This document shows, piece after piece, positions 38,213 to 63,145 of a stretch of 64,000 bases of DNA (its first letter is position 1; the number at the start of each line of letters is the position of its first letter). The stretch spans positions 126,790,001-126,854,000 of the forward strand of contig OX597814.1 of assembly GCA_951406725.2 (NCBI GenBank), in the 5' to 3' direction. Under the pieces are notes generated by a model. It searched no databases, had not been told where the DNA came from, and was given only the letters and a program-made list of their open reading frames with translations. This stretch comes from Octopus vulgaris. Taxonomy: Eukaryota. The translations under genes and the position numbers were made by a program.

Positions 38213-39903
38213 CTGAAGAAAACAAAAATTGAAAGAGAGTCAACTATTGAAAAGGTTGCAAGATGCAAGGAAAATTTTAAGAAAATAAAAATAAGAAATA
38301 AGTGGAAATTTTACCGGTGAATGTGTTACATTATAAGACACAAAAAGAAAATTACTCTCCCCAGACACAACAGAATATGCTTCAACACACAAACTCATAT
38401 AAAGAATCTTGCAAACCAAATCCAAAAACAAAAAATTGAAAATATTTTAGCTGATCCCCCAAAGTTCACCACTACATATTAGAGACTATGTTAATTCTAC
38501 TCTATAGTCTCTGAGATAAACCATTCTTTTGTTACAAATAAACAAACATTAGTTTGATGTGTAGCATTGTGTAAAATACTTATTTTTAAATTGTAACAAG
38601 TCTGATTTTGCTAAAAATATAATTTGTTTAATTCAAATATTTGGCCATTGAATGCTCCTGTCCCCAAACATAACAACCACTAAATTGAACAGTTTGCAAT
38701 ATATAACAATGAGCTTATTGTATATAGTGCTTAGATGCACTACAATTCAGTCTGTAAAGGTTAAAAGAGTGGACAGACAGCAGACATAAGTCAAATAAAG
38801 AAAGACATTAATGAAAGCTACAAGTACATATACAGTACATAGAATAAAACACAAAAATAGAGAAAAGTGAATATCAAAAGAATCATAAAGAATAAGGGTG
38901 CATAGGTATGTCAGGAGTAGTGTTGGTGAATTTCAGAAAGCATGGAATTTTTGTAGAATGCAGCATCCTGACAATTAACAAAAAATATAATTTTATAAGC
39001 ACGTTCATGGTTGGTAGGGATAAGGAATTCAAACTGGTGGCCAAAGTTGTTGATGTTGAAAGGATGGTGGATAATCTTGAGGCTTCCACCAAGTCAGCTG
39101 TTAAACATCAAAACTTCAGTGCCCAAATAAGTAAGATGTTCGAGATACTTTCACAAGCTTTTTGGTTTATAAACAAATCAAACAAGTAATTTATTTCATA
39201 GATGCACAATACACTCTTCAAAAATACTGCCATCAGTAAAAAAAAAATTCATTGTCACTGTAAATATCTAATGAAATATGTAAATTAACTAATTATATAT
39301 CCAAATTTCCAATTTGTAAATTAAGCAGATTAATTTTTCAAGTTTTTATCTGAATTACTTTCCCTAATAAACCTGTTGTATGTTATTGTTTGAATAGAAT
39401 TATGTTTTTGTTAACAATAATCCTCTGTTTCAATAAAATACAAACAATAGTATTGCAGTTAACTTTTCTCTGTCATTTTCCTATGTGCTACTCTCATTGT
39501 AAAGAAAATCTAACAGAAAATCTATTTAATGACTTTTGAGATTCAAAATTAATATCCTGCTTTCTTAATTCATCAAAAAAATCACAGAATTTATTAGCAA
39601 AATATGCCTGACGATTTGAATGATTTAATTCTATAAAATGAAATTTCTGGAAGCTGGACATTAGGTACAAAGGTCAGGGCTATAACAGCTATAAATAGCA
39701 CAGATCATATGATTTTAATTCTTAAGAATATTCTATTTTGTATTAAATATTTTCACAAAATCTATGGAAAGTAATCAGTGTGCATTCTTAACAGAGAAAA
39801 TTTTATTTCATATTTCATAAAAATCCACCAAAATGATAAATTTAAAAAAACAGTACTTCTGTATAGGCACAGACATGGCTGTGTAGTTAAGAAGGTCACT
39901 CCT

Positions 39904-39942
<39 letters not shown>

Positions 39943-40410
39943 ATGCATGTGTGTGTGCATTCTTGTATGTGTGTCTTTGTGTCTGTATTTGTCACCCACC
40001 ACCACCACCAATGCTTGACAACTGGTGTTCATTTGTTTACATCCAAAAAAAAAAAGATAAGTACTGAGATTGATTTGTTTGACTAAAACCCTTTAAGGTG
40101 GGGCCCCAACATGGCCACAATCCAAAGATTGAAACAAGTAAAATATATATATAAGATATGATAGTTTACTACTTTCAAAGAAATACACACCACGTGAATT
40201 GAAACAAATTAAGTTGTCTGCTTTTCTTTGATCACAAATCACTTAATTTTCAAAAAAATCTGTGAATTTCACTGTGTGTGCACACAACTGTGTGCAATTT
40301 ACAGTCTAACAGTTTTTGCAAACAAAGTGTTACAAATTTGAGAAAAATGTGAGTTTAAGTAAAATACAGAAATTACAAAAGACAAAAGGAAGATAAAGAA
40401 ACTGAATTAA

Positions 40411-40782
40411 TCTAGAAAAACGACGACGCCGTGGTGATCTCATTCTTGCTCACAACATCATAAGCGGAAAGTGTAACCTCTCGAAAGAGCTGTTCTTCAC
40501 TCCTGTTCCAGAGCGTCGGCTGCGGGGTCATTCCGAAAAGCTCTATCTGCAACGATTTCATCTCAATCGAAGGAGAGGGGTTTTCTCCGTCCGGGTTGCG
40601 GATCCGTGGAATAAGCTGCCGGACGAGATGGTGAAGATGCCGACGACCGCTCGGTTCAAAGTCTACCTTGACCACAAGTGGCCTGAACTCTTTACATGAA
40701 CACCAGCCTGTACATAACTCCATGTCCCCCTACATGGCCTTGCTTTTTGCTTTTTGAGCCAAAAAATTAACTAACTAACTAA
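40411..40782 (+). mobile_element. Young 5'-truncated CR1 LINE of a second family, with (TAAC)n tail
   Basis: Open frame 40412-40699: LEKRRRRGDLILAHNII...RLRGHSEKL...FSVRVADPWNKLPDEMV...FK..LD*. CpG-rich. Confidence 0.9.
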
Positions 40783-43003
40783 GAAAAATATATTTTTCAT
40801 TCAGCGCATGGCATAAAATTTCTCTTTTAATTTTAATTAAACCTCTGGTTCTGATCTCTAGTCAAAAAATTTGCTAATTTTGGACATTCTTCCTTACACA
40901 GTCTTCATGTTTGGTAACAACTCTATTATTAAACCCAACAGATTCCCTTAACCACTTTGTTTTCTACACAAACACAATCTCCACTCACCCAGGAATCATC
41001 AAACAAAATTGTTAGAATCTTTACACAATAAAAAAAATGAACTGTAATATCAATTCAACTGATCCATATCAGACTTTTTCAGCATCTTCTTCAATAGAGA
41101 CACCTGTAATAAATAGCTTCCTAGATTCTAAACTAAGATTTGAAACTGGATCTACATCTTAGGAAGCTATTTGTTACACACCTATTTGGGATCAAGCAAG
41201 TGTATCTCTCATTCCTACAGCTTTATTTTCTAAAGTTGCTAAATGAAAGCAAAAGCTTTCTGCTTGCTTGCTCTCTCTCTTTCTCTCTCCATCTACATGT
41301 CTTCCAAGCAAGTTAGGCAAACCAGTAATGGGTACCTAATTACAGTGGTAGTCACTGTATAACAGAAAACAATGACAAAAGAAAGGCTGCTGTGATGTAT
41401 ATTTACAAAACTTTTGACTAAGTATGTTGTATCCACCTTTCAGCTTCTCTCTACACCAAACATCACTTGAACTTTCTGTCTCTTTTCTCTTTGTGCCCAT
41501 CTAGCCTGTCCAACAATTTACACTTGCTTTCAATTAACAATATTGTCACTCATCTTCTTACCTACTTCTCTATTAGGGTTTCTGGAGAATATTGCTAAAC
41601 ACAGCACTTCATACACAAAAGTAACAGAAATATTTCTTGGTATTCATTCATAAAAAGCTGACAAAAAGCTAAATTGTCTGGGTCAACTTAAACTTTAGCA
41701 GGATGAACTCCTTGAAACAATATTTTATAGACTGGTTTCAAATTTTGGCACAAGGCCAGCAATTTTGGGGATGGGACCAGTCAATTATATCAACTCAGTG
41801 CTCAAATGGTACTTATTTTATCGACCTTGAAAGGATGAAAAGCAAAGTCAACTTTGGCAGAATTTAAACCCAGAACATAAAGATGGAAAAATGCTGCTAA
41901 GCATTTTGCCTGACATGTTAATCACTCTTGCAGCTCACCACTTATTTCAGATATTAAATACTTAAAATCTGAAACATTTTGTAATGTTTTTTCAGACCCA
42001 ACAATGTTATGTATGACAAAAACCTAAGCCATTACAGAAGAGTAGAAAAAAATTAGATATTTTTTACAAATATTTATAGAATACTGAAATAATATGCTAA
42101 ATTGTTTGAATGAATGGAATGTTAGATACTGTATTGAAATGATTTGTGTAGGAGTACAGCAGCTTGTAAGGCCAACAGTAAAAACCAGCAGTAACAATGG
42201 AGAACGCAATTACTAAAATTGAAGCATGAAAGAAAACTGTTGAAAATCAAACTTACACATTTACTAAATTCTCACAAGCAACAAATTATTTTAAAGCATA
42301 CCTCCACTGTGTTCTATGTGATAGTAGAAGTTAATTAAAGATCCAGACAAATTTTTACAATCAGTAACTTTGTTGGTAGGTAAAGAGCACAGATCAAAAA
42401 GCCATCTGTTTGATCCAGCAAGAAGCCAGTCAATGATAGAGTAACATTCACCTTAAGTAATATATATGTATATGTAGGTCATCACCAGTGTAACAAAACT
42501 GTAGTTAAACACTGCCAACAAAAGAGCTTTAATACAGTTGCTTAGCCTGCAAGAAATAGCAGTCAAAATCCCTCAAATCATACCCTACTATCATTTTATT
42601 TATTTATTCAATTTTAATGGCTTAGGAAGGGTAGTGTCCATAGCCATTTTCAAGGCATCTATGACTAGTAGGAGAAAGTTGTCTTCAGATCAAACATCTA
42701 GATTGAGTGGACTCAGCTAAAAGCACCCAAGGGTCAGGAGGTGGTGTTAAACCTGGCAACAGATTAAGTATACTACCCCAAAACAGAAACAATCTGTCAA
42801 ACAAACATCCACACAGTTTCTATCTTCTAGATTTCGCTCGAAAGGCTTTTCTTAACCTAAGACTATGATAAAAGACATTTGACCAAGTGTTGTGCAGTGC
42901 AATTGAGCCCAAAACCACCTAGTTGTAAAACTAACCTCTTTAACCACACAGTCATGCCTGTATTCAGCTTATAAAAGGAAAGGCATAGGGTCAATATAGT
43001 CTT

Positions 43004-43040
<37 letters not shown>

Positions 43041-44307
43041 GATATACTATTTTACTCTTACTTGTTACAGTCATTTGACTGTACTTATTCTATTAGTCAC
43101 TTTTGGCAAACCACTAAGTTACAGGGACATAAACACACCAGCATCGGATGTCAAGTGATGTTGGGGGGATAAACACAGACACAGAAACGTACACACACAC
43201 ATATACGATAGGCTTCTTTCAGTTTCCATCTACCAAATCCACTCACAAGGCTTTGGTTGGCCCGAGGCTATAGTAGAAGACACTTGCCCAAGGTACTATG
43301 CAGAGGGACTGAAACCGGAACCATGTGGTTGGTAAGCAAACTACTTACCACACAGCCACTCCTACGCCTATATATATATGTGCCGGTGGCACATAAAAAG
43401 CACCCACTACACTCACGGAGTGGTTGACTTTAGGAAGGCTATCCAGCTGTAGAAACACTGCCAGATCAGACTGGTGCCTGGTGCAGCCTCCTGGCTTCCC
43501 AGACCCCGGTCGAACCGTTCAACTCGTGCTAGCACGGAAAACGGATGTTAAACGATGATGATGATGATGAATATATATATATATATATAAAAGATGAAAT
43601 GATCTCAGCTGGAACTCCTTTGATCATAGCTCTGCTCAATCAGGGCTGATCTAGGGCTGAACAACTACAACAATAAGTGAAATAAAATCACTTATCACAA
43701 CAGGTAAAAAGAAGTCACAGTAAGATTTATATAAAACATATCAGGTAATCAATGATTTTTCTCTCTGTTGAAATAGGGTTAACATATCTAGGTTAGAATA
43801 TTGAATGACAACTAAATCGAGAAATTCAATCATAAAATATTTGCTATTAAACTTGCCTTGCTAACATTAACTTCAGTGTAAATACATCTGCTATAGTTGT
43901 TTATATATATATATCTTTTATCTCTAACTTGTTTCAGTCATTAGACTGCAGCCATGCTGTGGCACTACCATAAAAAATTTGATGCCAGTACATTTTTTTT
44001 CTTTAAGGCCTGATACCTATTCCATCAGTCTCATTTTGTCAAACCACTAGGTTACAGGTACATAAACACACCAACACTAGTTATCAGGAAGTGGTGGGGG
44101 ACAAACACAGACACAAAGACAGGTACATACACACAGATATTCAACGGGCATCTTTCAGCTTCTGCATACAAAATCCACTCACAAGGCTTTGGTTGGCCCA
44201 AGACTACAGTAGAAGACACTTTCCCAATGTGCCACACAATAGGACTGAACCTGGAACCATGTAGCTGGGAAGCAAGCTTCTTACTACACAACCACACCTA
44301 TGCCCAT

Positions 44308-44356
<49 letters not shown>

Positions 44357-44358
44357 TT

Positions 44359-44404
44359 TGTCAGTGAACAGGTCGCAGTTTCAAGTGACGAAAATATTTT
44401 GACA
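44359..44404 (+). ncRNA. Minimal type-I hammerhead ribozyme-like motif (G3:C8 core variant), left arm of palindrome
   Basis: TGTCA (stem I) GTGAACA (core) G GTCGC-agtttcaa-GTGAC (stem II) GAAA ATAT T T (palindromic minimal stem III, UUU site) TGACA (stem I). Confidence 0.55.
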
Positions 44405-44467
44405 CAAATTAAATTTAAATGTTGAAGTGAAACTAACAGTTTCACTTCAACATTTAAATTTAATTTG

Positions 44468-44513
44468 TGTCAAAATATTTTCGTCACTTGAAACCGCGAC
44501 CTGTTCACTGACA
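44468..44513 (-). ncRNA. Mirror copy of the minimal hammerhead-like motif, sense to ATP9 pre-mRNA
   Basis: Reverse complement of 44359-44404 with one difference in the stem II loop. Confidence 0.55.
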
Positions 44514-44539
44514 AAAGGTTAATAGAGAAAATAGTCTTT

Positions 44540-45450
44540 GTATGTAGCAAATGTGTGAGTACAATATGCACTAAAAATATGCAGAGAATAGACTCCCTCA
44601 AATGCCTGATGGGATCTTGAGAAGTAGTAGATAGCTTCTGTTACTTAGGTGACTGAATTAGCAGTGGAGGATAGAGTTCTGACAGTGCAGTTGCTAGAAT
44701 GGGAATGGGCTGGGCAAAGTTCACTCCCAGAAGGAAGGACAGATGGTTTGATACCTGTGTACATACAGCTATGCTACATGATAGTGAAACATGGGCCTTG
44801 ACTACAGAGGACTAACAAAGGCTTGAAAGTATTGAAGCTAGCATGCTCACTGGATGGGTAATGTCAGTGTACACACAAGAGAGTGTGAGTGATTTAAAAG
44901 GAAAACTGGGTATAAGAGATATCAGATATGTGCAAGAGAGAAGACTGCACTGGTTTGGTTATATGATGCATATGGATGAGAACAGTTGTATAAAGAAGTA
45001 CAAAGCTATAACTGTAGAGGGAACATGTGGAAGGGGTCGACCTAGGAACACATGGGATGAAGTGGTAAGAAAGGGTCTTTCGATACTGGGCCTCGCTGAG
45101 GAAATGAAAAGAGACTGGGAGTTGTGGTGATTTGTTGTACTTGAGAAGACATGTCAAAACAAGTATAATTGTTGTCATCCATACATACAGGCTTGTCCTT
45201 TACAGGTGCTGGTGCCACAGAAAATGCACGTTTGTCAATACTGTGTAAACGCACCCATGCCGGTGGTACATAAAAAGCACCTAGAGCACCCAGCACACTC
45301 TGTAAAGTGGTTGACATTAGGGAGGGCATCTATCTATAGAAACTATGCCACAACAGACAATTTGGAGTCTGAAGAGCTCCTCAGCTGGACAGCTCCTGTC
45401 AAACCGTCCAACCAATGCCAGTATGGAAAACAGACATTAAACAATGATGA
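44540..45450 (+). mobile_element. 5'-truncated RTE LINE 3' end with family-C tail
   Basis: ORF 44843-45130 VQERRLHWFGYMMHMDE..CIKK...VEGTCGRGRPRNTWDEVV. Confidence 0.85.
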
Positions 45451-46299
45451 TCATAATATACATAGGCAAGGAGTTTTAACTCAAAAGAGGATATCTGAAG
45501 TCATTCATTTTAATAAAGACGTAAGTAACAAAAGAGCTACACGAAAATTGACAAACAACTATAAATAATTCAAATCAGCAATAGAAGTCCCTTGTGTAAG
45601 AAGAGAGCTGAAAAATTTGACATGCCCACATTAAATAAGCTAAAGTCCTACTGTGTGACAGCTTTACAAATCGCTCACATATATATAACAACTAATTGCT
45701 ATTCATTTTCTGGGTCTTTGCTCTAAATCATAAACATAAAAAAATTTCAATTAGGTACAAGACAGTGGTGGCGGGGTAGCCTATTTACTGGTGGTTCAGT
45801 GACTATAAAATTGCCTATGATTTTTCAAATGATATAAGGAAGGGTAAGTTGTTCGGTTCGTCCAATAAAAAATTTATAAATGTTGATACAACAGAATTAG
45901 CAGAACATATAAATAGGTGATCAATTCCCATATTATCTTGTAAATGTCTTAAATACAATTTATATCTAAAAACCATAGCACTTTACTAATACGCATACAC
46001 ACACAGAGTACCAATATAATCTCCATACACTAATGAAGAAATGATACTACCAAAACTTAATGTTACTCATCTCCAAAGAGATACACAAAACATACAGATA
46101 AAGATAGAGGAGTAACATCATTGATATACATCTTCTGTGGAAGAAAATCTGTACAAAATTAATTGAATCATGTCTTTAAAACTAAGAAGCACTTCAGAAC
46201 AGAAAAGTCAGTGACTTTTTACAAATCATGCTCCCATCTTCATCTCTTTTCTAGACTGATCAGTTCTTCAGTCCATCTCACTTGTGTTTGCTCTTCAGA

Positions 46300-46870
46300 T
46301 GGCAGTTCTCTTCCAGTGTTCTCAATCAGCTGCATATTGTTCCTGTTTTTCTAGTGTTTACTGACAACCTTCACCTCTGCTTGAAAGGTTCAATATCATG
46401 TGGCTCCTGGTCATCATCATCTCCTTTCTGCTTTTGGTATTCATCTCAGTTCAAATGATCTGGTTACTGGAGGAAGTTATCAAACATCCCTATTCTTTAT
46501 TCCAGCATCAAGTCTTGGAGATTTTGCAATGATGCTCTACTTGAGACTTCATTTTTTATATGATCATGGTATAAAATTCTTGAGATTTTCCTGAAGCATC
46601 TTTGGTGAAAAGCAACCATTTTTTTTTTGTAAGTGACTTTCAGTTTTCTTTCACATTTTGTATGCATACAGCATTGTGGACTGTACAGGTGTATCATGAA
46701 ATTGGTTTCCTCTGATGTCTATGGACCAAATTTTGTACATTCTTTGAAATACTGCTAACAACTTTCTGATTCTGCATTTGACATCAGTTTCAGTGTCGTC
46801 ATCTTTGCTCAGAACACTGTCAAAGTGTTTTAGTTGGCTAATGTCTTCAATGGTCGCTTCATACACTCTT
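46300..46870 (-). mobile_element. Decayed RTE LINE fragment (different subfamily)
   Basis: IEDISQLKHFDSVLSKDDDTETDVKCRIRK and AFHQRCFRKISRILYHDHIKNE. Confidence 0.7.
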
Positions 46871-49819
46871 TGATGAAGTTGCTGTCAGTAAGCGGTTTTT
46901 CCCACTCTGCCATCCTATGCACTACTTTGCAACTAGTATGAGTGATTGATTCATTTTCAGCAAACATTCTCATGAAGAGAATGTTTAAACACAGCAATGC
47001 AAGTTAAAACACAGTTGCTGTAGGAATGAATTCTCAATGCAGGTACTTACACAAAAGGTATAGTGCAGCTATGGTAGGCCAAATGAATTGACCTCGCGTG
47101 CTGGATCTGGTCTGTGGGCCATAGTCTGGTTACCCCTGTGCTATAGGTACAAGGCCTGAAATTTGGTGGGAGGGAACTAGTCAACTCCAGTGCACAACTG
47201 GTATTTATTTCATCAAATACTGAAAGTATGAAAGGCAAAGGTGACCATAACAGAATTTTAACTCAGCTTGTAAAGACAAACAAAATGCCACTAAGAATTT
47301 GGTCTGGTATGCTGATAATTCTGCCAGCTCACCAGCTTAATAATAATAATAATGGTTTCAAATTTGGCAAAAGGCCATCAAGTTCAGAAGAGAGAGCAAT
47401 TTAATTACATCAACCTCAGTGCTCATCATCATCATCAACATCATTTAACGTCCATGTTCCATGCTAGCATGGGTGAGACAGTACCACAAGAGCTGGCTAG
47501 GCTGAAACCTGCACCAGACTTTTGTGACTGTTTTGGATACCCTTCCTAACACCAACCACTCAGCAGAGTGGACTTAGTGCTTTTTACGTGGCCCAAGCAC
47601 AGGCAAGGTCAGTTTTGACAAGATTTTTGCAGCTGGATGCCCTTCCTAACACCAACCACTTTACAGTGCGGACTGGGTGCTTTTAAGTAGCACCTGCACT
47701 GACAGGGTCACCAAGCACTTGCAAGACAATTTTTAAGAGGGGAGGAGGCATTGGAGTAGGTGATAATGAAAAGGTCACAGTGAGACTGATACAGGTGTCT
47801 TGCTGTAGAGGAAGTACAAGGTTACCTGGCTGGAGAGAGAAATATCAGGAATGAAGACAAAACAGATGTGCTACCACAAAGAAAATACATGGTCGCCCAA
47901 CCTGAGGGAAGTGCAGGAGAGAGAGAGAGAGATTGGGAGACTGCAGGATGTAGATAGTGGCAAAATGCCGGGCATACTCACAAGGAACAGGGATCATAGT
48001 ATAAATGAGATGGTTGAGTAAAGGAAGAGAGATACAGATAGTAGCAAGTGCCAGGGCATACTCTTGAGGTTCAAATACCATAACATAAGTGACAGGATAT
48101 TGCAAAGGGAGATTAATGAGTGCAAGTTAGTGGTGAAAGACCTGGGTATATAGAGAATTGGAGGGACTACCAGATAGCAATACAGAGGAACAGGGGTGTG
48201 AGGACAGGATTGGGGAGTGAGAGGAAATGCAAGAAAGAGATGTAGATTGGTTTGTTGGGGTAGGGTGAGAGAAAAGTTTTCTTATTACATATGGGTGGAA
48301 CATCCAGGTCAGGGGCTAGCAGATGGCAATAATAGAGTAAGACAAGGTATGTGGGTAGAACGCACATATCGAGGGGCAAGCAGAGAGCAATGATACAGTG
48401 GCACCAAGCCAAGGTACTAATTTTACTGACCCCAAAAAAAGGAAATATAAATTCATCCTTGGCAGAATTTAAGCTCAGCATATAAAGTTGTCTGGCATGT
48501 TAACAGTTCTGCCAGCTCGCTGCCTTTAAAAGCTGAGAGTTTCATACAAATAATAATAATAGATTATAATTTAGGCACAGCAATTTTGAGAAGGGTGAGG
48601 GAGGGAGATTAGTCAATTACATTAATCCAAGTATTTACACTTTATCAACCCTGGACAGGATGAAAAGTTGACTTCGATAGGATTTGAACTCTTGACATAA
48701 AAATCCCAAACAACTACTGCAAGGCATTTGTCTACTGCCAAGTCACCATCTTAATAATAAGAAAGGTGATAATTCCTAACAATAGAAGACTACAAATTTT
48801 GAAGAAAGGAACAATCCTCTGAGAAAAATAACATATTATTCCAATAGTAGAGGGAAGAGCCAAAAACTATTAAAGTATCTTGACCAAGGAGAAAAAAATG
48901 TGATGTCAATTATGAATTGGTTTCATAATCTATATGTGTATCCTATTAATTACCTATGAGCCACAAAAGTTCATATAACCAATGCTAAAATCTGAATAAT
49001 GTAATATTAAGAGGATGTGAGATATATCCCCTGGGAAAGGTTGCCAGATCTAATGCCTACAGTTTAGTGAACAGACATAATTAAAATTAAGTGCTCTCTC
49101 ACTATCTAGTATCATTAAATCTATTGCGTTTTGATAAATTAGTCCAAAACCAAAAAAGCTACTCATGCCATTATCAAACGAGCGAGTAGTAATAGTAAGA
49201 TATATTTGCTAATAGGTCTATAATATAGAGTGACACTTGTATGTCTGTACCTTACCAATAATCATTAATGAAAATAACGAATATAATAAATTCTAGGAAA
49301 AAATGTTTACTAATTTATCCTACATTCAGAACATTCTAAAATCTAGGCCTCTTCATAGAAAAGAGAATATCTAGAGAATATAAACAAGAAAAGTTTTGTG
49401 TCAGATACCCTCCCTAGTGCCAACTATCATCTCTACTCCCATAACAGTTTATAATTTTAGTAGAAATTTAATGGTCTTATGATATTTCATAGCAATATTT
49501 CAGCAAAATAGTGATGACTTGTTAACAAAGCAATCAGTTGGGTATGAAACATTTTATTATTTGCTTCACAGCAAAGAACTAGAGACACCAGAGAGACATG
49601 CTAGCATAAATTAGTAATAAACTTCTATCATCTACATAAATTTTCAAAGGCCAACATTTATTGTGCGGTTGTGACATTTTAGATTCATTCTGGATCATAC
49701 AGTCATTCACTGATTGTTTCCACAACAGATTTCTCCATGTTCTATTGACCAGAAACAGAAATCAAGACTAATTAATCAATTCATGTAAAGTACCGAAGAA
49801 TTCAACATAAACTGCTGCT

Positions 49820-50000
49820 GCTGCTGTTGTTGTTAGGTAACAACAGTTACCACAAAACACATACATTGTTATTGTTTTTAGCCAACAATAACACTGCATA
49901 CACCATTCAATGTTGTTGTTAGCTGACAACAACAAAACTACACACACCATTCAATGTTTTTATTGTTAGCTAACAGCAACAACACACACCCGATACAATA
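49820..50000. repeat. ~45-bp tandem repeat, about 4 units, with a palindromic core GTTGTTGTTAGCT(A/G)ACAACAAC
   Basis: CACCATTCAATGTT(G/T)TT..TTAGCT.ACA.CAACAA units. Confidence 0.7.
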
Positions 50001-52172
50001 TTGTCTTTAAATGTCACAATAAATACAGCCATCCACTAAACTACCACATTGCTTTGACTTCACTCAATGTATTTTATCTAAGTGTGCGACTAGGGGGTAC
50101 ATGTGTGTGGCTGTGTTTACACAGACAGAATGAAGGAACAGATGACAATCCATGCTACTCTGAAGAGAGAATATAAAAAGGTAGTGATGATGGTGTTTGG
50201 GAGATTTTAATTGCTAACCTTATGGTCAAGACCAGTAATTACATGTCCCTTAACCTACCTTTATTCTGTTCCCTATAAATGGCCAACAAATGACCCAATC
50301 TCATTGAAAGGTCATATACCTAGGTCAGGCATTATGTGTACACACACACACAAAAACACAGCACCTTTCCCAAGACATTGCTAAAGATCACTACATTTAA
50401 TGTGACATTGACAGACTCTCATTACTTACCTAGCAACTAACTCACAAACAGCTCAGTTGTTGAAGAAATGTTACAATAAAAATTAACACACACACACTAA
50501 GTCAAAGGATTGCACTGAAAGGAAGAACACAGAGTATAAAAAAATTTTTTAAGGAAGAGGCGCAGGAGTGACTATGTGGTAAGTAGCTTGCTTACCAACC
50601 ACATGGTTCTGGGTTCATTCCCACTGCATGACACCTTGGGCAAGTGTCTTCTACTATAGCCTCGGGCCAACCAAAGCCTTGTAAGTGGGTTTGGTAGACA
50701 GAAACTGAAAGAAGCCCATCGTATATATGTATATATATATGTAAGTGTGTGTATATGTTTGTGTGGTGTGTTTACATCCCAATAACTTAGGTTTGGCAAA
50801 AGAGACTGATAGAATAAATACTAGGCTTCCAAAGAATAAGTCCTGTGGTCGATTTGCTTGGCTAAAGGCAGTGCTCCAGCATGGCCGCAGTCAAATGACT
50901 CAAACAAGTAAAAGGGTAAGAATTAATATTTTAGAGCTTATGATGGTAGTAGTAGAAAGAAAAGAAAATATCTCCATCACTATGTTCTATTACATGTTTT
51001 GATATGATAGTATGTTTATAAAGCCTGCTAGAGAGAATTTGACAATTTTCATCAGTCTTCATTCTATCTTAATACAGCCTTGAGCCAACAAGAGAACTTC
51101 AACATAATCATCTGAACTGCTAGAAACAACAGCTAAATTTTCTTAAAAACACAGCCAACTATATTAAACAATAAAAGACACATTATGACATATGTCTCCC
51201 TCTGGTGAGACATAGTTTTTTCTATGAAGCTTTGCTTTAAGTCAGCAGCTATTTTCCTTAAGTATTATTATGAAAAGTATCAAGATTATTGACTACTTCT
51301 AAAATACAAAGTTGTTATGGAAGGAGAGACAAAAATCATCTATGATCAGCACTAGTGAGAATATCTGACACTCATATATACTAAATACAGATATGAGTGT
51401 ACATCGGAGTTATTAAATGTAGTGGTAAGATGTGAAGGGTCACTATATGCAATATACGAATATAAGGCTCTCATGTCAGGGGTACCAATCATATTGTACA
51501 GATGAAAAGTTATTTAATGTAGAAGTAGTGCTTCTTAAAAGAAAAGATGGTCACAGTCAGAATGCCCTTTAGTTATAGTTTTGCTTGATCAGTGTTCAAC
51601 TCGCAGAATTTTGCATGTTACGTCTTGACACAACAAACAAAATGCTCTGAATAAACCAGAATATGAATATTCACCACATTTTAATTTGTTGTCCACTTCA
51701 TTTAGCGATTCCTTGCTTCCTACACAGCATTTGCCTTCCTGCAACAATAGGTTTTCCTGATTCCCCATTTTCCATTACTTTCCTTATTTTTGTAGTAAAC
51801 AGAGTTCCTCAAGAGGAGCTTCATGCACTGGAGACTTTTGAAGTTCAGTCTACAAACCATTCTAGACTTTACAGATATCTGTGATATATGGCAATATTTT
51901 GGAGCAATGGATTATAAACATGGATGATAGCTATTGCTTATAATCTTTACAGATCCTCAAAGACCAGTAGGGTTAATGTTCATACACTGAAAGAAAGGGT
52001 ACCATATAAAGATTGATTGACTCATATCAAATCTGATGTGATGTGGTGCTGCTGCTAGGACTGTTTAAGCATGGTGGCATTGAAGCAGAATTGTGGTGTG
52101 AAAGTTTCTGTCATGGCCCATACTCAGAGTAAGATGTAAATTCATTATCATAAGCTAAGACATCAGTTAAAT

Positions 52173-52611
52173 CAGGTTCTCAACCGGGGTCCAGAAGATT
52201 CCCTGGACGGTGGAGAGCATGTAAGATTTTTGGGGGTCCATGCTAACAAAATAGTATTTTAAGGGCCTATGAAAAATTTTGATTTAAATGTATTTATTGC
52301 AAGAAACAGCTAAATCTCAAATGTTTTACACAAGAAATAAGTGGAAATTTTACCAGTGAGTGTGTTACATTATAAGGCACAAAAAGAAAATAACTCTCCC
52401 CAGACACAACAGAATATGCTTCACACAAACTCATAAAGAATCCAAATGCAAAAACGAAACCTACACAAGTTAATGTGTAAATAACAAAACAGGGATCTTG
52501 AAAGTAGTATCTATAAAACTAGTTTTTAAATGTCAAATGGATATGGTGACCCACCAGAATAAAATAGTAATCAAAGGGGTCCATAGGTTAAAAAGTAGCT
52601 GGGAACCTCTG
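52173..52611. mobile_element. hAT-like MITE carrying a ~130-bp copy of 38293-38432
   Basis: TIRs CAGGTTCTCAAC / GCTGGGAACCTCTG. Degenerate 8-bp TSD AGTTAAAT / AGCTAAAC. GGGGTCC subterminal motifs. Confidence 0.7.
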
Positions 52612-53291
52612 AGCTAAACTATAAAACAGTGAGTTGTATGACTAGGCAGACACACAGGCAAGACAAGTAACAAGATACAAACTAATAAACTACTCTGACA
52701 GTAGCTTGATGAACTATATAATCTTTGACAATACCTTGACATCCTACCAACTCTACCAGCTACAACTCTCCATGTAAAATACACACACACACACACACAG
52801 AGAAACACATGAACATAAAAAGACACGCAAACTAAAAATATATACAGAGTCACACTAAGTACAATAATGTTGGATCCTTTTTTTCTCTATCTATTTCTAC
52901 CTTCTTAATATCTAACTTCTTACTCGGATAAATATTATCTTTAATTCAATTCAAAAGATATTTTTACACATGAAGCAACAAGATTGAACACTGGCCAAGA
53001 TAGAGTTTAGGCTGCATTTATGCTGAGTATGTGCATGACTTCAAAGAGAGAGAGAGAGAGAGTGAGACATGTCTAGGTATTGCTTGAGGTGCTAGAAATA
53101 GCAGTCAATTTTAACTCAAATCACACCTGACTTTCTAAAAGAAAAAAGAAAACATGTATTCAGTATAATGTAGTTCCAGAAACATTACACTTTAAATAAA
53201 CACAAATGGTCTTAAAGGCTTGTCCAATCAAGGCTGACTTGGGGCTAAACAGTATGAAGCAACATGACCAAAATGCAAGCAGTGTTTAGAC

Positions 53292-53623
53292 CAGGGCTGG
53301 CCAACCTGAGGCCCGCGGTTTGCATGCGGCCCACAAACTTTTATCTTGCAGCCCACTTGATACTATCTTGAAATGGGTATATTTAAACAAACACTTCTAA
53401 AATTTTATCAAAAATTAAAGATTGTAATGAAAAGCAAAAAAAGAAAGATGCTACTGTTTTTGCAACGATAATATTTCATGTTGAATCAACAATCATTCAC
53501 TCATTATTGTAATAATAGCATGTGAAAGCAAAATGCTTTCAATTTTCTAAGTATATAAGTGGCCCTCAAAAACCTTATTGTGATTAAAGTGGTCTGCAAT
53601 GTAATTCAAGTTGGTCAGGCCTG
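53292..53623. mobile_element. hAT-like MITE
   Basis: TIRs CAGGGCTGGCCAAC / GTTGGTCAGGCCTG. TSD GTTTAGAC / GCTTAGAC. GCGGCCC subterminal motifs. Confidence 0.8.
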
Positions 53624-54229
53624 GCTTAGACACTTTGGAGACATCAGTTCACTCTATTCTAATTCCAACTTATATACAAGTATTAAAAAACCTTAGTTAT
53701 GGCAGTTAATTTATAAGAAAGTAAACAATCCAGGGTATGACTTTAAACAGTATCTGGTAATGGGGCCCTGGCTCAGGAGTTCCAGGGTTTTGAGGAGTGT
53801 ATAACCACCTCTTACCACTACTGTTTCCATGTCTACTCCAACTCGGAGTAGTAGCATCTATCAGGGTTCTAGCTATAGGTTAATTAGTATGTCATAGAAT
53901 TGCTTCTAGAAGACAACCACTCACGGACACCCAGACAGACCCAGGGGAGATAAGGTTTTTCAGCTTCTTAGCTACTCAACTAAAAGACAGTAACTCCATT
54001 CAAATCTTGCATCCTGATAACTACTGGGCCCACGGCAGTTGTTGCATTAGATCAATACAAGTTTGAAAAGCAAAACAGAAGGATTGGCTCTGCCAAAACC
54101 ATGCTTCACTATAATAATGAAACCCTGTTGTCTTGTGGGGTAATTTATTGAGCATTAAAAAAGTCTAAGGGAATAGACCCCTGTAGAAAATCCATGACCC
54201 AAAGATAGATATGTATGGTTATACTTAAC

Positions 54230-55720
54230 CAATATCTGATCTCCCTTGTGACTCCAAGGATGTTGTGAACAAAAAAATAGAGATTGCTCATTTATGAGTT
54301 CTCTTCTGGCAGAGTGGTTTTGCCACATACCTTTTGATGTTCCCTTACATTGGGATTGTTAGGACAAGATTTACAAGCTTCCCTTTTGGCTCTAGTATAC
54401 CGATTCATGTATATTCAAAGGCCTTGGCGTCCCTGGTGCTTGCTTTCTTCCAAGCAGAACTGTCTAAAGCAAGATTCTTCTATGAATATAGGTTAGTCTC
54501 GCAGTCTTTTAAGGTTGTTTTCAGTGCATCTCTGAATTTTTTATGAGATGCATCAATGCTACTTTTGAAAACTCAGAAGTGAATATTACTTTTGGCAATC
54601 TTCTAATCTGGCATTCTGACAACATGTCCAGCCCAGCACAACTGGATTTGCTTGAGCTAAGCAAACAAACTGGGTGCATTTTCACATTTGAGAACTTCTG
54701 TATTGGGAATTCTATCCTGCAATTTTATGCCAAGAATTTTCTTCAAGCAAGACATGTTGAAACAGTTGAGCTTTTTAAAATGAAGTTGGTACACTGTCTA
54801 AGTTTCAGCTCCATTGAGGAGAGTTAGATGGATGACAGTATTGTAAACTCTAATTTTGATATCAATGCGAATACCCAGGCCATCCCAGGCTTTATGTTGT
54901 AGTTTTCCAAAAGCTCCACTTGCCTGACTAATACATGATGACACTCTAGTATCAGTGTAGACATTTGAGGATTGTGTACTTCCAAGATATATTCAAGTGT
55001 CAACATCTTTCAGTTCATTTCCATTAATTTTATTCTGTAACACACACAATTGTGTATGTCCTAAGATAGGTCTATGCAAGACTCCTGTTTTTGCAGTACC
55101 AATAGTGAGGCCAACATTGTTGTGGGCCTTTGAGAGTTGGTCAACACATGCTTGCATGCTGGGTTTATTTTGTGCAAGCAGCCCACAATCATCTGCAACA
55201 GTAGTTCATTGAAAATCTTGATTTTTGCCTATAATCTCTGAAAATTGAACAACTTGCCATCATGTCTGTGCTTAGTGTCATGGCAGAAAATATGACATTA
55301 AAAATGGCAGGTGCTAAGACACAACCCTATTTCACACCATAAACTACCATAAACACACAATAAAAAACAGATAAAAATGTCCACATTGCTCCTAAAACAT
55401 ACCATCATAAAATTGGAACACCATACACATGAATACATGTAAACAACCATATTTGACAAGGTTTCTCCATAACCACCATGACACACTGTGACAACTTTTT
55501 GAGATCAACAAAAGTCATATATTCTACTCAGGACACTTCCAGATCTGTCTCAGTGTAACTATATATATAGTGCCCCATTCACAACAGAAACCACACTGGA
55601 TTTCTGGAAGGTGATTGTTAGTGGTGAGATATTGAGGCAATTCAGGAGCCTTCTTGCCAAAATTTTACCAGCAACTAACAAGAGAAAAATACTTTAGTAA
55701 TTGTGACACATACATGCGAC
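54230..55720 (-). mobile_element. Decayed RTE (BovB-like) LINE ORF2, RT region to C-terminus
   Basis: Minus strand SLLVAGKILAR, and VADDCGLLA...MQACVDQLSKA...GLTI...KT (RT ADD motif near 55190). Confidence 0.75.
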
Positions 55721-55959
55721 AAGTTAAACAGATAGCTTCAACACACATGCTGCTATTAATTTCATAACTTCATACAGTAGAATATATTGTATGTGTGTGT
55801 CTTTTCTCTCTCTCTCTCTCTCTCTCACTGACTTTTATATATTATGGAAACAGCTGTTACCATACATTGGACTGACATAGATTAGATATAGCACAAGAAA
55901 CTACAATTGGTAGATCATAATTAAAAAATACCACACATGGAAAACAAGAGTGTATAAAA

Positions 55960-57020
55960 GGAATGAAATGAGATGTCCCAACTGGGGAAAGTTACTTGGG
56001 ACCAATTAAGGAACTCACAAATCCAGAATTATCCTGACTATGAAGGAGCAGGTGCCTCAGCTGTGATCTCCAATCTAACAGCAAACCCTGAGAGTAAACC
56101 TATTTACTTGAGCCAGTTTCACTACTCTCCAATGAATTTCAGCACATCTACTGAAGAGCAGCACCTCCCCCTAAGTTGATGAAAGTTTAGTCAAGAGAAA
56201 AGTATCAGTACTCTCTCCCTTCAGTCTTGTTCATTATATAATCTATTTTACTATAGCCATCAGACAGAGCAAAACTGCCTGCCCTTATCAGCCGAAGGCA
56301 GATGGCTGAGTACTCCTCACAGCTGATAGCTGGATCTGGCCTAGTAACAACTACTGTTTAACATGACTCCACAAGTCAGCAATGCTCAGACACTAAACAG
56401 ATGCTTACACAAGTTTCGCCACTCTACACACATCTTGGACCAGCCTGGCTGATAGCACTACCATATCTATAGAATTTATTTTGAACCAACAAAGTTCCCT
56501 AAAAGCACTGTCAGGTCATAAAGTTTGTCCATAGTCCACAGCTGAAAGTCTTTCTTCAATGCAAAGATATTTCCATAGAATGTCATTATCTTGCTCCCCA
56601 CTTAACCATTTCAGAATGTTATGGTTGAAGTACCACCAGCTTGGTAAAGAACTGTGAATACCTGACAACATTCCAATGCCAAGTGCCCAATTTTTGTCAT
56701 TGCTTGACCCAGGGTTGCAGATCTACCCAAGAGATAAGGAGTAAAAAAAACCAAGCCTCACAAATAGCAACCACATTTTCTTAACATCTAGGACTCTCTG
56801 AAGATGCCACAGCATCAGTGTAAGCACATATACCAAGTTATCCATGCAGAGAATGTTGGTAGAAAATGGAGTTTCTGACCAGTGGGATGTGAAAGAAGCA
56901 AGAAAAAACAGATACTCCAGTCCTGTCAGATGAAAACCATGCAGAGATATAACATTCAGATAGTAACAGATAATGGAGTTATGTTCACCACCACTGTTTG
57001 CACATTTCTTAGTGAGATTA
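55960..57020 (+). mobile_element. Decayed Ty3/Gypsy pol fragment (RNase H to integrase)
   Basis: GAGASAVIS...ESKPIYLS (RNase H-like) and IVTDNGVMFT (integrase core-like), in Gypsy domain order. Confidence 0.5.
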
Positions 57021-57369
57021 GCTACCTTGCTCATAGCCTCAAAAATAAAAATCATCATCATTTAACGTCCATCTTCCATGCTCACATTGGTTGAATGGTT
57101 TGACAATATCCTGCAAGCCACAGAGCTGCATCATGCTCCAATGTCCACTTTGACATGATTTCTACAGCTGGATGCCTCCCTAACAACCACCACTTTACAG
57201 TGTGTACTGGGTGCTTTTTTCATGCCACCAGCACTAGTGAGATTGTCAAGCAACTTGCAAGGCAGGAAAGGAACAAGAAAAGGAAAAATAAAAAGTTCCC
57301 TTGACTAAGTAGCTACATCTTCAACTCTTCCTTAATTTGGATCAGTTGTGGCAGGACAGGTGTAACTTG

Positions 57370-58025
57370 TGACAGTAGATACAATAGTGGCTTTCAGGTA
57401 CAATAGTAGTTTACAGTTGCAACAGTGAATTATAGTTACAATGAGTTATAGCCACAATTATAGCTCACAATTGCAACAGTGGGTTATGGTTACAACAATA
57501 GTTTATAGTACAACATTGGGTTACATCTGAAACAATAATGAATAGATACAATAGTGGGTTATAATCACAACAATGGGTTATAGTTACAATAGCAGCTTAC
57601 AGTTGCAACAATGAGCTATAGGATTGGATTGGATTGCCCATGTCCAATCCACTGCAGAGCAATGGCCTCAGCATGTTCTCTCCCCAACTATAAATTCGAG
57701 CTTGAGATCATACTAGTTAGATGGCCTATTCTGCAACACTGGCTCAACATGGCTTGGTAGAAAAGTGCAGTTTTTATACTTATACCCAGGAGTAGTTAAG
57801 TCCATTACTTAACTACTCAACTGATACTTATTTTATCAATCCAGAATAGATGAAAAGCAAAGTTGGTCTTAGTGGGATTTGAACTCGGAATGTCAGGACA
57901 GACAAAATATTTCTGAGCATTTTGCCTGTGTGATAACGATTCTGCCAGCTCGCCACCATAACACTGGGTTATAGTTACAATAATCGCTTATAGTTACAAC
58001 AGTGGGTTATAATTTATAGTTATGC
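57370..58025. repeat. Degenerate ~20-bp minisatellite (ACAGTGGGTTATAGTTACA) split by other sequence including a family-B SINE
   Basis: Units at 57370-57620, resuming at 57960-58025. Confidence 0.7.
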
Positions 58026-59808
58026 TTATACTAAAAGCTATGGTTAATGAACACAACTTCAAATGCATGAGAAAACACTTCAGTTGTAACAAATACAGCT
58101 AGGTTTAACAAGAAACAGCTAAATCTAGCCTCAGTTTTCAAAGTATAATCTAGATGAAGGCAATAAACATTCTTATAATTAGTATAGCATAATGAAAGTA
58201 GATCAAACCAGACTTTGTATATAAAGTTCTATATGTGACAGTAAATATAGCTAAAATTAGATACTGTAACCCTAGATGTGTCAGTAAACATAGCTACAGA
58301 TAAGTTGAAACAAAATTACTAAAAGGGTTTGAATTATCAAACACTGGGAAAAAAAATTAAATGTGTAACAATTACCTACAACTAGGTAGTAGACATAGCA
58401 GCTAAGTCGCCTACGTATCCCATAGTAATGTTTAAAGAAAGGGAAACACTGGATAGTATGTCCTGAATGCACAATACTTGTGATCACATACCTACTCAAT
58501 CTAGGCTGACCTGGGATTAAACAACAGTCATTGAAAAAGCTTAAAATAATTATGACAGAAAACATTAAAACTGCAGCAATTTCTATAAGAGAAAATACTT
58601 TATCTGACTTGCATTAAGACCCTCTTAAGTCTAACAAGATGTTTCCATAAGTAGTTGGCAATTAACTCTCTTAATGCTGTCTACTATGCTGTCACTATGT
58701 CGGCTTCTTCGGTCAATGATACTAGGTCATAAGAAAACTGTCAACAGGATATTGTGTCTTATTAATTCTTATGAAATCAATACAAGTAATCATCATCGAA
58801 TAACATCCACTTTCCATGCTTGCATGGGTCATACAGAATCTGTTGTGGCAGACTTTTTATGGCCAGATACCCCTCCTTTCACTATCCCTTATTTGTTGCC
58901 AAGCAAGGTAATATTTTCCCATAGCTGGACATGTTTTTAATGAAAGACTCAAAACTAACAACCTCACATATATGATAGTAATGCTCATTTACACCAATCA
59001 CATGATGTCTAGTCAAGGGTACACACAAACAGGCACACACCCAAACTCATGCACACACACGACAGACTTCTTTCAGTTCCCACCTATCAAATCCAACTCA
59101 AAAACCAGATAGTTGGGAAGCAAGTCTCTTAACCTCACAGCAATCTCTGCACCTAGAATAAATAAGTAATGATATGAAACTCTAAGAAATGCTAAACAAA
59201 TTGTTATTTTTATTGGAGTGTACAAAAGAAAAAAACTGCAAAGAATCTGGCTTGTTTACCAAAACTGCATCAAAAGACTAAGATTCATCTTTAGAGGCAA
59301 GGAAAACTTCAGCCTTGCCCTGATCAGTTACTAAAACCTCAACACTAGAGTACTGCTCCACAAGATGCTGCTACTACAAAATATGTGCAAACTTCCTTAA
59401 CAACATCCAAAACAAGTTCATCTAACCAAGTGATAAATATCCACTCATCAACATAGTACAACTTCCAGCTCACAGATACACTGTTGCCTCTGTCTATCAC
59501 TTCTACAACTACTTTAATAGCCTTCACTCCTCTAATTTACCTAACTGCATACTCTCCTCAACCAGGTTTTCGTATCCCAACCATTTTCCCTATCATTACC
59601 CTTACTGTATCTAAACTTCTAAACAGTTATTCTCAAAACAGCATCCCTCTGAACTCTCCCCCAACTCCCATGGTTTTCTACAGACACTGATTTGCAGATG
59701 CTCTACCTGAACTCTAAGTACATGTATGCCAGCAGTTTAGGGCTGCTTCAATCATTTGTTTGTAAATATTCATTATTGAATGACAAGGAAACAAGAATTA
59801 CATAATCA

Positions 59809-59910
59809 ACTTCAATAGCTTACAGTTGTTTCCACTATAAGAAGCAGTGTATTCAAAGCTGGGTGCATGTGCAACATCTTGTAGCTTCCTCAGAGCCAAG
59901 AAATTGAAGT
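59809..59910 (-). ncRNA. Second minimal hammerhead-like motif (canonical CUGAGGA core, GUA site), partly decayed
   Basis: Minus strand: ACTTCAA..TGGCT CTGAGGA A GCTACAAGA-(loop)-TCTTATAGT G GAAA CAACTG TA AGCTA TTGAAGT. Confidence 0.5.
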
Positions 59911-61247
59911 GTATGTTTATTTCAGAAAGTGTTTAAATACTTAAATATTGTAATATAGTTTGAGGGTGAGAAGCCCCTCCCAGAAATATGCAGATTTAGA
60001 TAAACATATGTATTCACATTTGTTTTAATAGTTAAACCATTCAGTTTACACAGAATTTAATGCAGGAGATAAATCTAATCATGGCACAGAGTGTAGATTA
60101 AAAAAGTTGTTCCAATTGTCAGCATTCCCCCCCTTTATATGATTATCTAGGACTACAGTTATTCAATGTGTTCCTTTCATATCTAAAATAGAACACAAGA
60201 GAGTCATGTTAGAGATTTAGTTGCTATTTCTAGCATACTCCTTTTATTGGGCTCATGTACATGAGAGATAACACTGTACATAACACATTTGATAACATAC
60301 TGCCAAAAAGCTGGTGGCAGTAGAGGCTAGACTTTAAACAAAGTAATTGTAGAAGCAAGATTTGACAAATGAAATTGTGTAGGATGAAAACTTTTGGTGA
60401 ATGACGTAAAATGAATTTTTTAGTCAATGACGATGAGTCAGAATGTAATAAGTTAAACAAACTTGGTACCAAGTACACTAAATTTAATTCTTGCTCATAA
60501 ATATACTTCCCAACAGTAAATATTTATAGCTAAATTAGGCCTAACATAGTTAAATCCTGGGAGAACATGAAAAAGCTATCTCTCTCTCTCTCTGATATAC
60601 ACACACATTTATGTTGTAGATTTGAGTGTAAATTGATGCTTTGCTGCATATATGCTAAAGCATTAACATTCTTACAGAGGATGTTGACCCAAGGAAATGT
60701 TTTAGAAAGGGTGATAAATATATCTGTGGTAAAACAGGGAAACAAAAGAAACAACGAAGCTGTAACAGATTTCAATGAAGAGTAGAAGTAGATAAAACTA
60801 CAAGATGCCACAGTAATAATATTGGATAAAAGTTTGACAATAGAATTATTATGAAGCAGGGACCTATCCCTCACTAAAAGTTTTACTGGCTAAATCCTTT
60901 GTCTGAAAAAGCACCCAATGACAACTCAATGAAGGAGTGTCAATGTGTTTGTTTGGGCTGCTAGAACTAGCAGCCTAATCCCCATCAAATCACATCTAAT
61001 CCTCTTAAGTAAAAACACAGTGGACAATGTGTGTGTGTGTATTTACAGAGAGTGAGAGTTGTATCAATGTTTGCTTTTATGTAAAGTTATGTATAAAAAC
61101 AGTAAAACATTAAATTAAAAAATCACTTAATAATTTGCAGTTTATATTTATATATTTTTACAAGAAGTTGACAGTCTGGTGTGATCAGTTAGATGCTGGC
61201 AAGTAAACCTAAGCTTAGAAGTCATTATCACTTTTTCCTTAGCTGTT

Positions 61248-61281
<34 letters not shown>

Positions 61282-61291
61282 AGTGGCTGTG

Positions 61292-61680
61292 TGGAGACGT
61301 AGAAGTGGCTGTGTCGTAAGTAGCTTGCTTACGAACCACATTGTTCCGGGTTTGATCCCACTGCGTGGCACCCTGGGCAAGTGTCTGCTACTATAGCCCC
61401 GGGCCGACCAAAGCCGTGTGAGTGGATTTGGTAGATGGAAACTGAAAGAAGCCCGTCGTATATATGTATATATATGTATGTGTGTCTGTGTTTGTCCCCC
61501 ACCAACATCGCTTGACAACCGATGCTGGTGTGTTTACGTCCCCGTAAACACACAAACCTAGCGGTTCGGCAAAAAAGACCGATAGAATAAGTACTAGGCT
61601 TACAAAGAATAAGTCCTGGGGTCGATTTGCTCCACTAAAGGCGGTGCTCCAGTCAAATGACTGAAACAAGTAAAATAGAA
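61292..61680 (+). mobile_element. Young near-full-length family-A SINE
   Basis: Retains CpGs. Head GTGGCTGTG duplicated at 61284 and 61305. Confidence 0.9.
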
Positions 61681-62424: not shown

Positions 62425-62845
<421 letters not shown>

Positions 62846-63145
62846 TGGAGGTGATGACAAAGGACTGGGATGACTAGCAATATGCAGTTCTTAAGACCTA
62901 GCCATCTTGATGAAACCCAGTTCTAGTAGAACTGTGTGTGTGTGTGTATCAACAGTTCTCAATCATGGATCCCAGAGACACATGTGGCCCTTAAGCATCC
63001 TTCCGTCAGCCCCTGACAGTCATCCCCCTTCAGAGATAATAAATTTTTCTTTAATTGACTTGTGTTTTCTATTTTTTCATGCAGCCCCTACAAAAATTAT
63101 CTGGCCTGGATATTAAAAAGGTTGAAGACCATATATATATACACA

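What the first reader, a model, noticed from the sequence alone, without database searches (positions are those of the whole stretch)
44356..44516. 161-bp palindrome whose arms encode a minimal hammerhead ribozyme with a compensatory G3:C8 core swap
Seen: 79-bp arms with one mismatch and a 3-nt loop. Each arm reads stem I TGTCA, core GTGAACA, an extra G, stem II GTCGC/GTGAC, GAAA, palindromic ATAT, UU, stem I TGACA. Established: the hammerhead core is C3UGANG8A with a C3:G8 tertiary pair, and Penelope-like retroelements carry minimal hammerheads with palindromic stem III that cleave as dimers. Here both positions are swapped (G3, C8), which suggests selection on the fold rather than decay. Inference: this is an inverted Penelope/retrozyme terminus placing a ribozyme on both strands. 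In the ATP9 pre-mRNA the ribozyme is transcribed first and then sequestered by its antisense in a 79-bp hairpin, where the mismatch becomes G-U. That hairpin would be a good ADAR/Dicer substrate.
Basis: partly seen in the sequence, partly recalled or inferred. Interest (0 to 1): 0.75.

Follow-up and report, generated by a model that had tools for sequence, protein, structure and literature searches.

The report
Swapped-core hammerhead in folded-back retroelement end
This palindrome is a folded-back piece of a common jumping gene whose end carries a hammerhead-shaped RNA, predicted to cut itself slowly, in which two paired core letters have traded places; the swap is kept across related element families, while this particular hairpin is likely a one-off accident inside an intron.

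Summary
The palindrome is real (79-bp arms, one mismatch). Each arm is the ribozyme-bearing part of the terminal repeat of a young Penelope-like element (Neptune/Nematis type; over 5,000 exact core copies; an RT plus GIY-YIG ORF lies ~1 kb upstream in long copies). The motif fits the published minimal PLE hammerhead except for G3:C8 and a G as the extra base. The swap is not decay. An older sister family keeps G3:C8 while changing N7, loop II, stem II and the stem III palindrome. A more distant homologous family has canonical C3:G8. I found no natural G3:C8 in the papers I could read; Lünse 2017 was not available. Cleavage is untested, and most copies were reverse-transcribed from uncut RNA. 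The local hairpin is atypical: family inversions join 5' ends (54 of 80), never 3' ends (0 of 80), and this junction is unique in the genome. It most likely arose by fold-back at a native 5-bp hairpin. It lies in ATP9B intron 1, where it would smother the ribozyme. This scan has noted the same swap before, elsewhere in this genome and in another.

The parts
44317..44351 (.). (TA)n microsatellite beside the insertion, the usual flank of this family
   Evidence: many family copies abut (TA)n; (TA)n bias of PLEs with the CX2-5CxxC linker in PMC8557442
44353..44442 (+). 5'- and 3'-truncated copy of the ~210-nt terminal repeat (pLTR) of a Penelope-like element; native sequence runs through the loop to 44442
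   Evidence: L008 continues the same way; loose ends after 44442 read on into the family sequence in all four runs
44359..44404 (+). minimal type I hammerhead-like motif with G3 (44364) and C8 (44369); predicted cut after 44399; antisense to ATP9B
   Evidence: matches the published min-HHR layout apart from 3:8 and the extra G
44430..44442 (+). native 5-bp hairpin (AAACT-AAC-AGTTT), inferred priming point of the fold-back
   Evidence: junction unique in the genome
44438..44516 (-). inverted copy of the left arm, sharing its 1-nt loop II deletion and stem II C>T; inferred fold-back product
   Evidence: one contig of run X1 bridges this arm to the right flank (44460-44778)
44468..44513 (-). second hammerhead-like motif, sense in the ATP9B pre-mRNA; G3 44508, C8 44503, predicted cut after 44473
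   Evidence: mirror of the left arm
38215..64000 (-). ATP9B (P4-ATPase IIB) intron 1, about 41 kb, containing the palindrome; exon 1 lies at about window-equivalent 79,130-79,210
   Evidence: gene model of protein P0002, isoform X2 by its source name

Best explanation
The arm is the terminal repeat of a Penelope-like retroelement and carries a natural G3:C8 variant of the minimal hammerhead, which is predicted to cut slowly and only when dimerised or protein-assisted, while the palindrome at this locus likely arose once by fold-back copying and likely has no function. In the element lineage, the 3:8 Watson-Crick pair was inverted in the common ancestor of families A and C and has been kept since, so the hammerhead fold is inferred to be under selection. 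Cleavage must be slow or late, because most integrated copies run intact through the cut site. At this locus a truncated copy beside (TA)n would have folded back on its own 5-bp hairpin and been copied for 74 more bases. In ATP9B intron 1 the sense motif is followed within about 60 nt by its full complement, so a -125 kcal/mol hairpin would replace a -12 kcal/mol fold and silence it.
For: PLE origin: the arm is part of a ~210-nt repeat. 41 of 42 loci picked for the endonuclease ORF carry the motif, about 1 kb after the stop, and every printed core reads GTGAACA (some loci overlap). L225 holds a 1,025-aa frame with RT-like motifs and a GIY-YIG domain (E 1.8e-5). 3' ends are bimodal, about 55 nt apart, like the PLE tail (PMC11167929). 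Selection: family B, homologous beyond the ribozyme (scores above the maximum of 300 shuffles in 6 of 6 A-B comparisons), has C3:G8 (713 matches, control 8). In 48 aligned rows the pair is C:G in 26, G:C in 21, neither in 1, and stem II pair 4 switches between A-U and G-C. Old family C has G3 in 27 of 30, C8 in 27 of 30 and C at the free N7 position in 26 of 30, with a different loop II and a shorter palindrome. Within A, 0 of 13 subfamily-level variable columns fall in 28 core/stem II/III columns (P 0.018). Indels among subfamilies rule out coding constraint. Lab C3G/G8C double mutants partly restore cleavage in a PLE hammerhead (PMC11167929). Uncut template: 31 of 80 copies begin at -5..+3 of a YAG|ATG site upstream of the motif, 3 of 80 within 51-60 around the cut at 57; 53 of 80 span the whole motif. 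Fold-back; energies.
Against: No cleavage data exist for this sequence. The intermolecular stem III (AAUAUU) is only -0.2 kcal/mol, and cofolding two copies did not give the active dimer. The swap is one or a few events, and B and C rows were picked by searches that include the core, so the pair counts overstate independence. The P value leaves out CpG-decay columns, one of which (11.1, 8 of 53) lies in stem II. G3-G8 mismatched cores are not rare (36 of the first 100 of 402 non-C8 matches, against 5,012 G3:C8) and occur on both arms of some insertions, so an intact core is not needed for each insertion. The extra base is G where the published consensus has H. Stem I is poorly kept in much of family B (45% paired overall). 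Pfam found no RT domain in the 1,025-aa frame.
Confidence: 0.62

Rival explanations
1. The fold is conserved but no longer cuts: the G3:C8 motif serves as a structural or protein-binding signal of the element RNA (for RT loading or template choice), and the swap switched catalysis off while keeping the shape.
For: Copies come from uncut RNA; stem III is marginal; in the anole PLE the ribozyme was dispensable for insertion in vitro and no reads ended at the cut site (PMC11167929); mismatched cores were still copied.
Against: All catalytic-core letters except free N7 are kept between families A and C, the pattern expected of catalysis; low activity is normal for PLE min-HHRs (PMC4209133).
Confidence: 0.2
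2. The family motif is as described, but the palindrome at this locus is an assembly fold-back artefact or is private to one individual.
For: The junction is unique in 2.8 Gb, sits beside (TA)n, and is unlike the family's inversions.
Against: The arms differ by a CpG-type change; the inversion stops at the element boundary with different flanks on each side; a contig from run X1 bridges the right arm, with its private deletion, to the right flank (X1 may be the source sample).
Confidence: 0.13
3. The hairpin has been kept or co-opted as a double-stranded RNA element in ATP9B intron 1 (ADAR substrate, small-RNA source or splicing signal).
For: Near-perfect 79-bp stem, -125 kcal/mol on the transcribed strand; intronic in ATP9B; the arms are closer to each other (1 difference) than to most other copies (94-98%).
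Against: Two thirds of sampled family copies already form inverted repeats, so such hairpins are common by-products; it is 6 kb from the nearest exon; Rfam miRNA matches are far below gathering scores; no conservation or RNA evidence was obtained.
Confidence: 0.05

Closest known systems
[quoted passage not shown]
   Same: U-rich lead, short stem I, extra base between 9 and 10.1, G10.1-C11.1, 5-6 bp stem II, GAAA, palindromic stem III, UU at 16.1/17, AU-rich tail; place in the pLTR; thousands of solo and opposite-strand copies; a natural 3:8 covariation (U3-A8 in Schistosoma).
   Different: G3:C8 instead of C3:G8 or U3-A8; extra base G rather than H. Their CUGANGA and U3-A8 descriptors would miss it.
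Poseidon_Ac hammerhead of Anolis, Frangieh et al. 2024 (PMC11167929; read parts 1-2 of 4)
   Same: Two RT start sites giving an optional tail; uncut RNA as template; the engineered C3G/G8C double mutant partly active, with protein help.
   Different: There G3:C8 is a lab mutant; here it is the wild type of the ORF-bearing lineage. Here the motif lies ~1 kb after the ORF stop and is not coding.
Neptune/Nematis-type EN+ Penelope-like elements, Craig et al. 2021 (PMC8557442; passages)
   Same: C-terminal GIY-YIG with two cysteines between the motifs, CX3CxxC linker, (TA)n flanks, inverted 5'-truncated copy, optional tail.
   Different: Tail about 55 nt rather than 30-40; clade not placed on a tree. 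The window's 3'-side fold-back is not among the described arrangements that I saw.
Natural hammerhead core variants, Perreault et al. 2011 (PMC3088659; passages)
   Same: Covariation at 3:8 in nature.
   Different: Only U3-A8 is named in the passages seen.

Membership tests
PLE minimal hammerhead (min-HHR) | lies in the terminal repeat of a Penelope-like element | tested here: met
PLE minimal hammerhead (min-HHR) | core CUGANGA read literally | tested here: not met
   GUGAACA in the window and in 5,012 matches; hence a variant
PLE minimal hammerhead (min-HHR) | Watson-Crick pair between positions 3 and 8 | tested here: met
   47 of 48 rows paired, C:G 26 and G:C 21; family C 27 of 30 at each position
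PLE minimal hammerhead (min-HHR) | extra base after A9, G10.1-C11.1 and a stem II of 5 or more pairs | tested here: met
   (stem II 91% paired); the extra base is G, published consensus H
PLE minimal hammerhead (min-HHR) | GAAA, palindromic stem III, NUH, short stem I | tested here: met
   families A and C; stem I is inconsistent in much of family B
PLE minimal hammerhead (min-HHR) | site-specific self-cleavage, as a dimer | not testable with these tools
   needs a bench assay; computed stem III is only -0.2 kcal/mol
EN+ Penelope-like element, Neptune/Nematis type | C-terminal GIY-YIG endonuclease with CCHH and a CX2-5CxxC linker | tested here: met
   Pfam PF01541 over cut-off; cysteine and histidine pattern read against PMC8557442
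EN+ Penelope-like element, Neptune/Nematis type | reverse transcriptase in the same ORF | tested here: inconclusive
   RT-like motifs incl. YVDD read in the 1,025-aa frame (motif identity recalled); no Pfam RT or PDB hit
EN+ Penelope-like element, Neptune/Nematis type | inverted 5'-truncated copy and optional 3' tail | tested here: met
   54 of 80 copies; bimodal 3' ends
EN+ Penelope-like element, Neptune/Nematis type | clade placement by RT phylogeny | not tested
   no labelled reference set was fetched
non-LTR retrozyme | head-to-tail tandem units each with a hammerhead | tested here: not met
   copies are solo, inverted or ORF-linked; window has two inverted copies only
microRNA precursor / MITE | Rfam gathering score; or a family of elements bounded by these inverted ends | tested here: not met
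   all Rfam hits below gathering; junction found once in the genome

The most novel reading that the evidence does not exclude
A retroelement lineage has fixed, and kept across old and young families, a naturally inverted G3:C8 hammerhead core paired with U17. It is an active but deliberately slow ribozyme that lets reverse transcriptase copy uncut RNA, and it is invisible to standard CUGANGA searches, so a whole class of swapped-core hammerheads may be uncounted in animal genomes.
Probability: 0.4. Interest if true: 0.65.

Novelty: new variant of a known kind. Interest (0 to 1): 0.47.

Why it matters
The C3:G8 pair is one of the few tertiary contacts in the hammerhead core. Its inversion was known to me only as a lab rescue, so a lineage that fixed it is an evolutionary confirmation. 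Families A, B and C give a ready-made natural series to test what PLE hammerheads are for, an open question in the papers read: if the swap lowers the rate yet the lineage is young and abundant, slow cleavage is tolerated or favoured. Search descriptors should allow G3:C8. The palindrome itself matters little beyond illustrating the many intronic hairpins this family leaves.

Tried and rejected
Rfam gave no hammerhead match, only sub-threshold miRNA-like hits from the hairpin. Independent check of the hairpin centre: no listed contig of runs X1, X3, X4, X5 crossed 44437-44443. The output is cut and filtered and hairpins assemble poorly, so this is no evidence either way. No RNA holder was listed, so expression, editing and small RNAs were not examined. 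A C3:G8 subfamily inside family A was considered (3 loci), but 6 of 6 candidates proved to be family B and the rest are about what double mutation would give; rejected. An L019/L023 shared flank was another repeat, not the PLE body. A motif scan for P4-ATPase exons found nothing, nor did PF16212 near the window; 1 of 300 short ORFs (of 814 candidates) hit the N-terminal family. PDB search with the PLE ORF was blank and the Atlas was unavailable. Lünse et al. 2017 and Martick and Scott 2006 are not held. An untemplated cap-G or splicing explanation of the 5' hotspot was considered but cannot be separated from fold-back remnants.

Full report
Observation. The window holds two 79-bp arms (44356-44434, 44438-44516) around AAC, with one mismatch at 44377/44495. 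A single arm folds into stems I and II with an open core, though not more stably than shuffles (z -1.3, -1.6). Rfam has no hammerhead match.

What the arm is. It is part of a repeat of about 210 nt. A 21-mer has 4,829 exact matches and a downstream 23-mer pattern 10,415; controls gave 0. Loci between divergent copies contain a GIY-YIG endonuclease frame. A search with it returned 150 scored matches, many at 94-98% identity with open frames up to 1,025 aa. In 42 loci examined (30 returned, 12 refetched, some overlapping), 41 carry the motif, typically about 1 kb after the stop, and every printed core reads GTGAACA. The long frame has RT-like motifs (identity recalled; Pfam found only GIY-YIG), a CX3CxxC linker and two cysteines inside the endonuclease. 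These mark the Neptune/Nematis type in PMC8557442 (passages). In 80 copies anchored downstream of the motif (70 loci from the first 26 Mb of contig 1; five look duplicated and paired arms are not independent), 3' ends fall in two groups about 55 nt apart, and 54 have an inverted family piece on the 5' side. Both are PLE hallmarks (PMC11167929; PMC8557442).

Is it a hammerhead? The published consensus for metazoan PLE min-HHRs (PMC4209133 text parts 1-2 and supplement passages) matches at every feature except 3:8 and the identity of the extra base; UU at 16.1/17 is common there. A homologous family B (713 pattern matches, control 8) has canonical C3:G8 with an A-U at stem II pair 4. Its homology to A holds outside the ribozyme (6 of 6 comparisons above 300 shuffles). 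On 48 distinct rows of A and B, the 3:8 pair is C:G 26, G:C 21, unpaired 1; stem II is 91% paired, stem I only 45% because many B rows are out of register. These are few events and B rows were chosen on the core. It has G3 in 27 of 30, C8 in 27 of 30, C at N7 in 26 of 30, a 6-bp stem II, another loop II and a 2-nt instead of 4-nt palindrome insert. So between A and C the only core letter that changed is the free one. Within A, 53 of 80 copies span the motif; 13 subfamily-level variable columns lie in loop II, the flanks, and one stem I position that keeps pairing as U-G, and none in 28 core, stem II and stem III columns (P 0.018; CpG-decay columns left out, one of them in stem II). Indels between subfamilies exclude coding constraint. 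Against: G3-G8 cores make up 36 of the first 100 of 402 non-C8 matches against 5,012 G3:C8, and appear on both arms of some insertions.

How it likely works. Shown: most copies were made from RNA intact at the cut site. 31 of 80 begin at -5..+3 of a YAG|ATG site just upstream of the motif, only 3 within 51-60 around the cut at 57, and 2 extend further upstream. From papers: min-HHRs are inactive as monomers and weak as dimers; in the anole PLE the C3G/G8C double mutant is partly active, cleavage needs protein, and uncut RNA is the main template; a G3-C8 variant is less active with C17 than with G17 (PMC3884650, passage, data not shown there). Families A and C have U17, which would avoid a G3-C17 trap (inference). 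Computed: the dimer stem III is -0.2 kcal/mol. Inferred: a slow, dimer- or protein-dependent ribozyme that trims tandem or read-through transcripts late, under selection in master elements and not in dead copies such as this one.

The palindrome. It joins 3' sides, which 0 of 80 sampled copies do, and the junction pattern matches once in the genome. In this subfamily the native sequence continues AAC-AGTTT after AAACT, so the loop and the first five bases of the right arm are native. The simplest origin is fold-back priming at that 5-bp hairpin, copying 74 bases to the arm's 5' end. Both arms share a 1-nt deletion and a C>T; only the left has a further CpG change, so the copying, or later homogenisation, is more recent than those changes or they were in the template. 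One contig from run X1 bridges the right arm and its flank; the centre could not be checked.

Host gene. A Pfam hit led to ATP9-type matches and a 100% identical protein named by its source as phospholipid-transporting ATPase IIB of Octopus vulgaris. Its exons lie on the minus strand: exon 2 at 38038-38214, exon 1 about 15 kb past the window. The palindrome is thus in a 41-kb intron 1. The right-arm motif is transcribed first (cut site 44473) and its complement follows within about 60 nt, a second or two at usual Pol II speed (recalled). The hairpin is -125 kcal/mol against -12 for the motif, and no second sense copy of this family's 18-mer is in the window. Cleavage here is therefore unlikely. 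ADAR editing is plausible for any such hairpin (general knowledge) but untested, and thousands of family loci would form similar ones.

Novelty. PLE min-HHRs and natural U3-A8 covariation are published. I found no natural G3:C8 in searches, in the supplement file that could be searched, or in a recent octopus repeat annotation (PMC13282606, passages; no mention of ribozymes). Lünse et al. 2017, the paper most likely to list such variants, was not available (seen only as a reference in PMC6765202), so novelty is provisional. Earlier notes of this scan report the same swap at other places in this genome and in another genome; they are leads, not support. Verdict: a new variant of a known kind at family level, and a probably functionless one-off hairpin at this locus; interest 0.47.

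Noticed in passing
family-wide, e.g. L031, L225, L174; 5' ends of short copies pile up at a site that looks like a splice acceptor (branch-like CTAAC, pyrimidine run, CAG or TAG depending on subfamily) about 17 nt upstream of stem I. It may be a transcription start, an intron end as in Drosophila virilis Penelope, or an RT stop.
   Followed up: partly
L111-L123; G3-G8 mismatched cores are about twice as frequent as the other transversion at position 8 and are spread over several subfamilies; recurrent RT error, exchange with family B or a mutational hotspot are all open.
   Followed up: partly
L075, L078, L083, L085 and others (family B): The commonest B subfamily has a canonical core but no clean stem I register after the cut site, whereas L074, L089, L097 have the same layout as family A.
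   Followed up: no
L225 (G000:C25:44299500-44307500): Very young element lineage: dozens of near-identical endonuclease frames and long inverted 5' duplications of the 3' region, with an (ACAT)n-rich 1-kb UTR.
   Followed up: partly
L008:rc 240-1000: Broken RT fragment of another Penelope-like family near a family A copy.
   Followed up: no
window 43101-43381 and 44034-44317; 44816-45130; 54996-55205: Two copies of a common SINE-like repeat 933 nt apart, and LINE RT remnants flanking or near the palindrome.
   Followed up: no
L150, L184, L188, L189, L194: Five near-identical copies with the same junctions, suggesting this PLE fragment was carried along inside another repeat.
   Followed up: no
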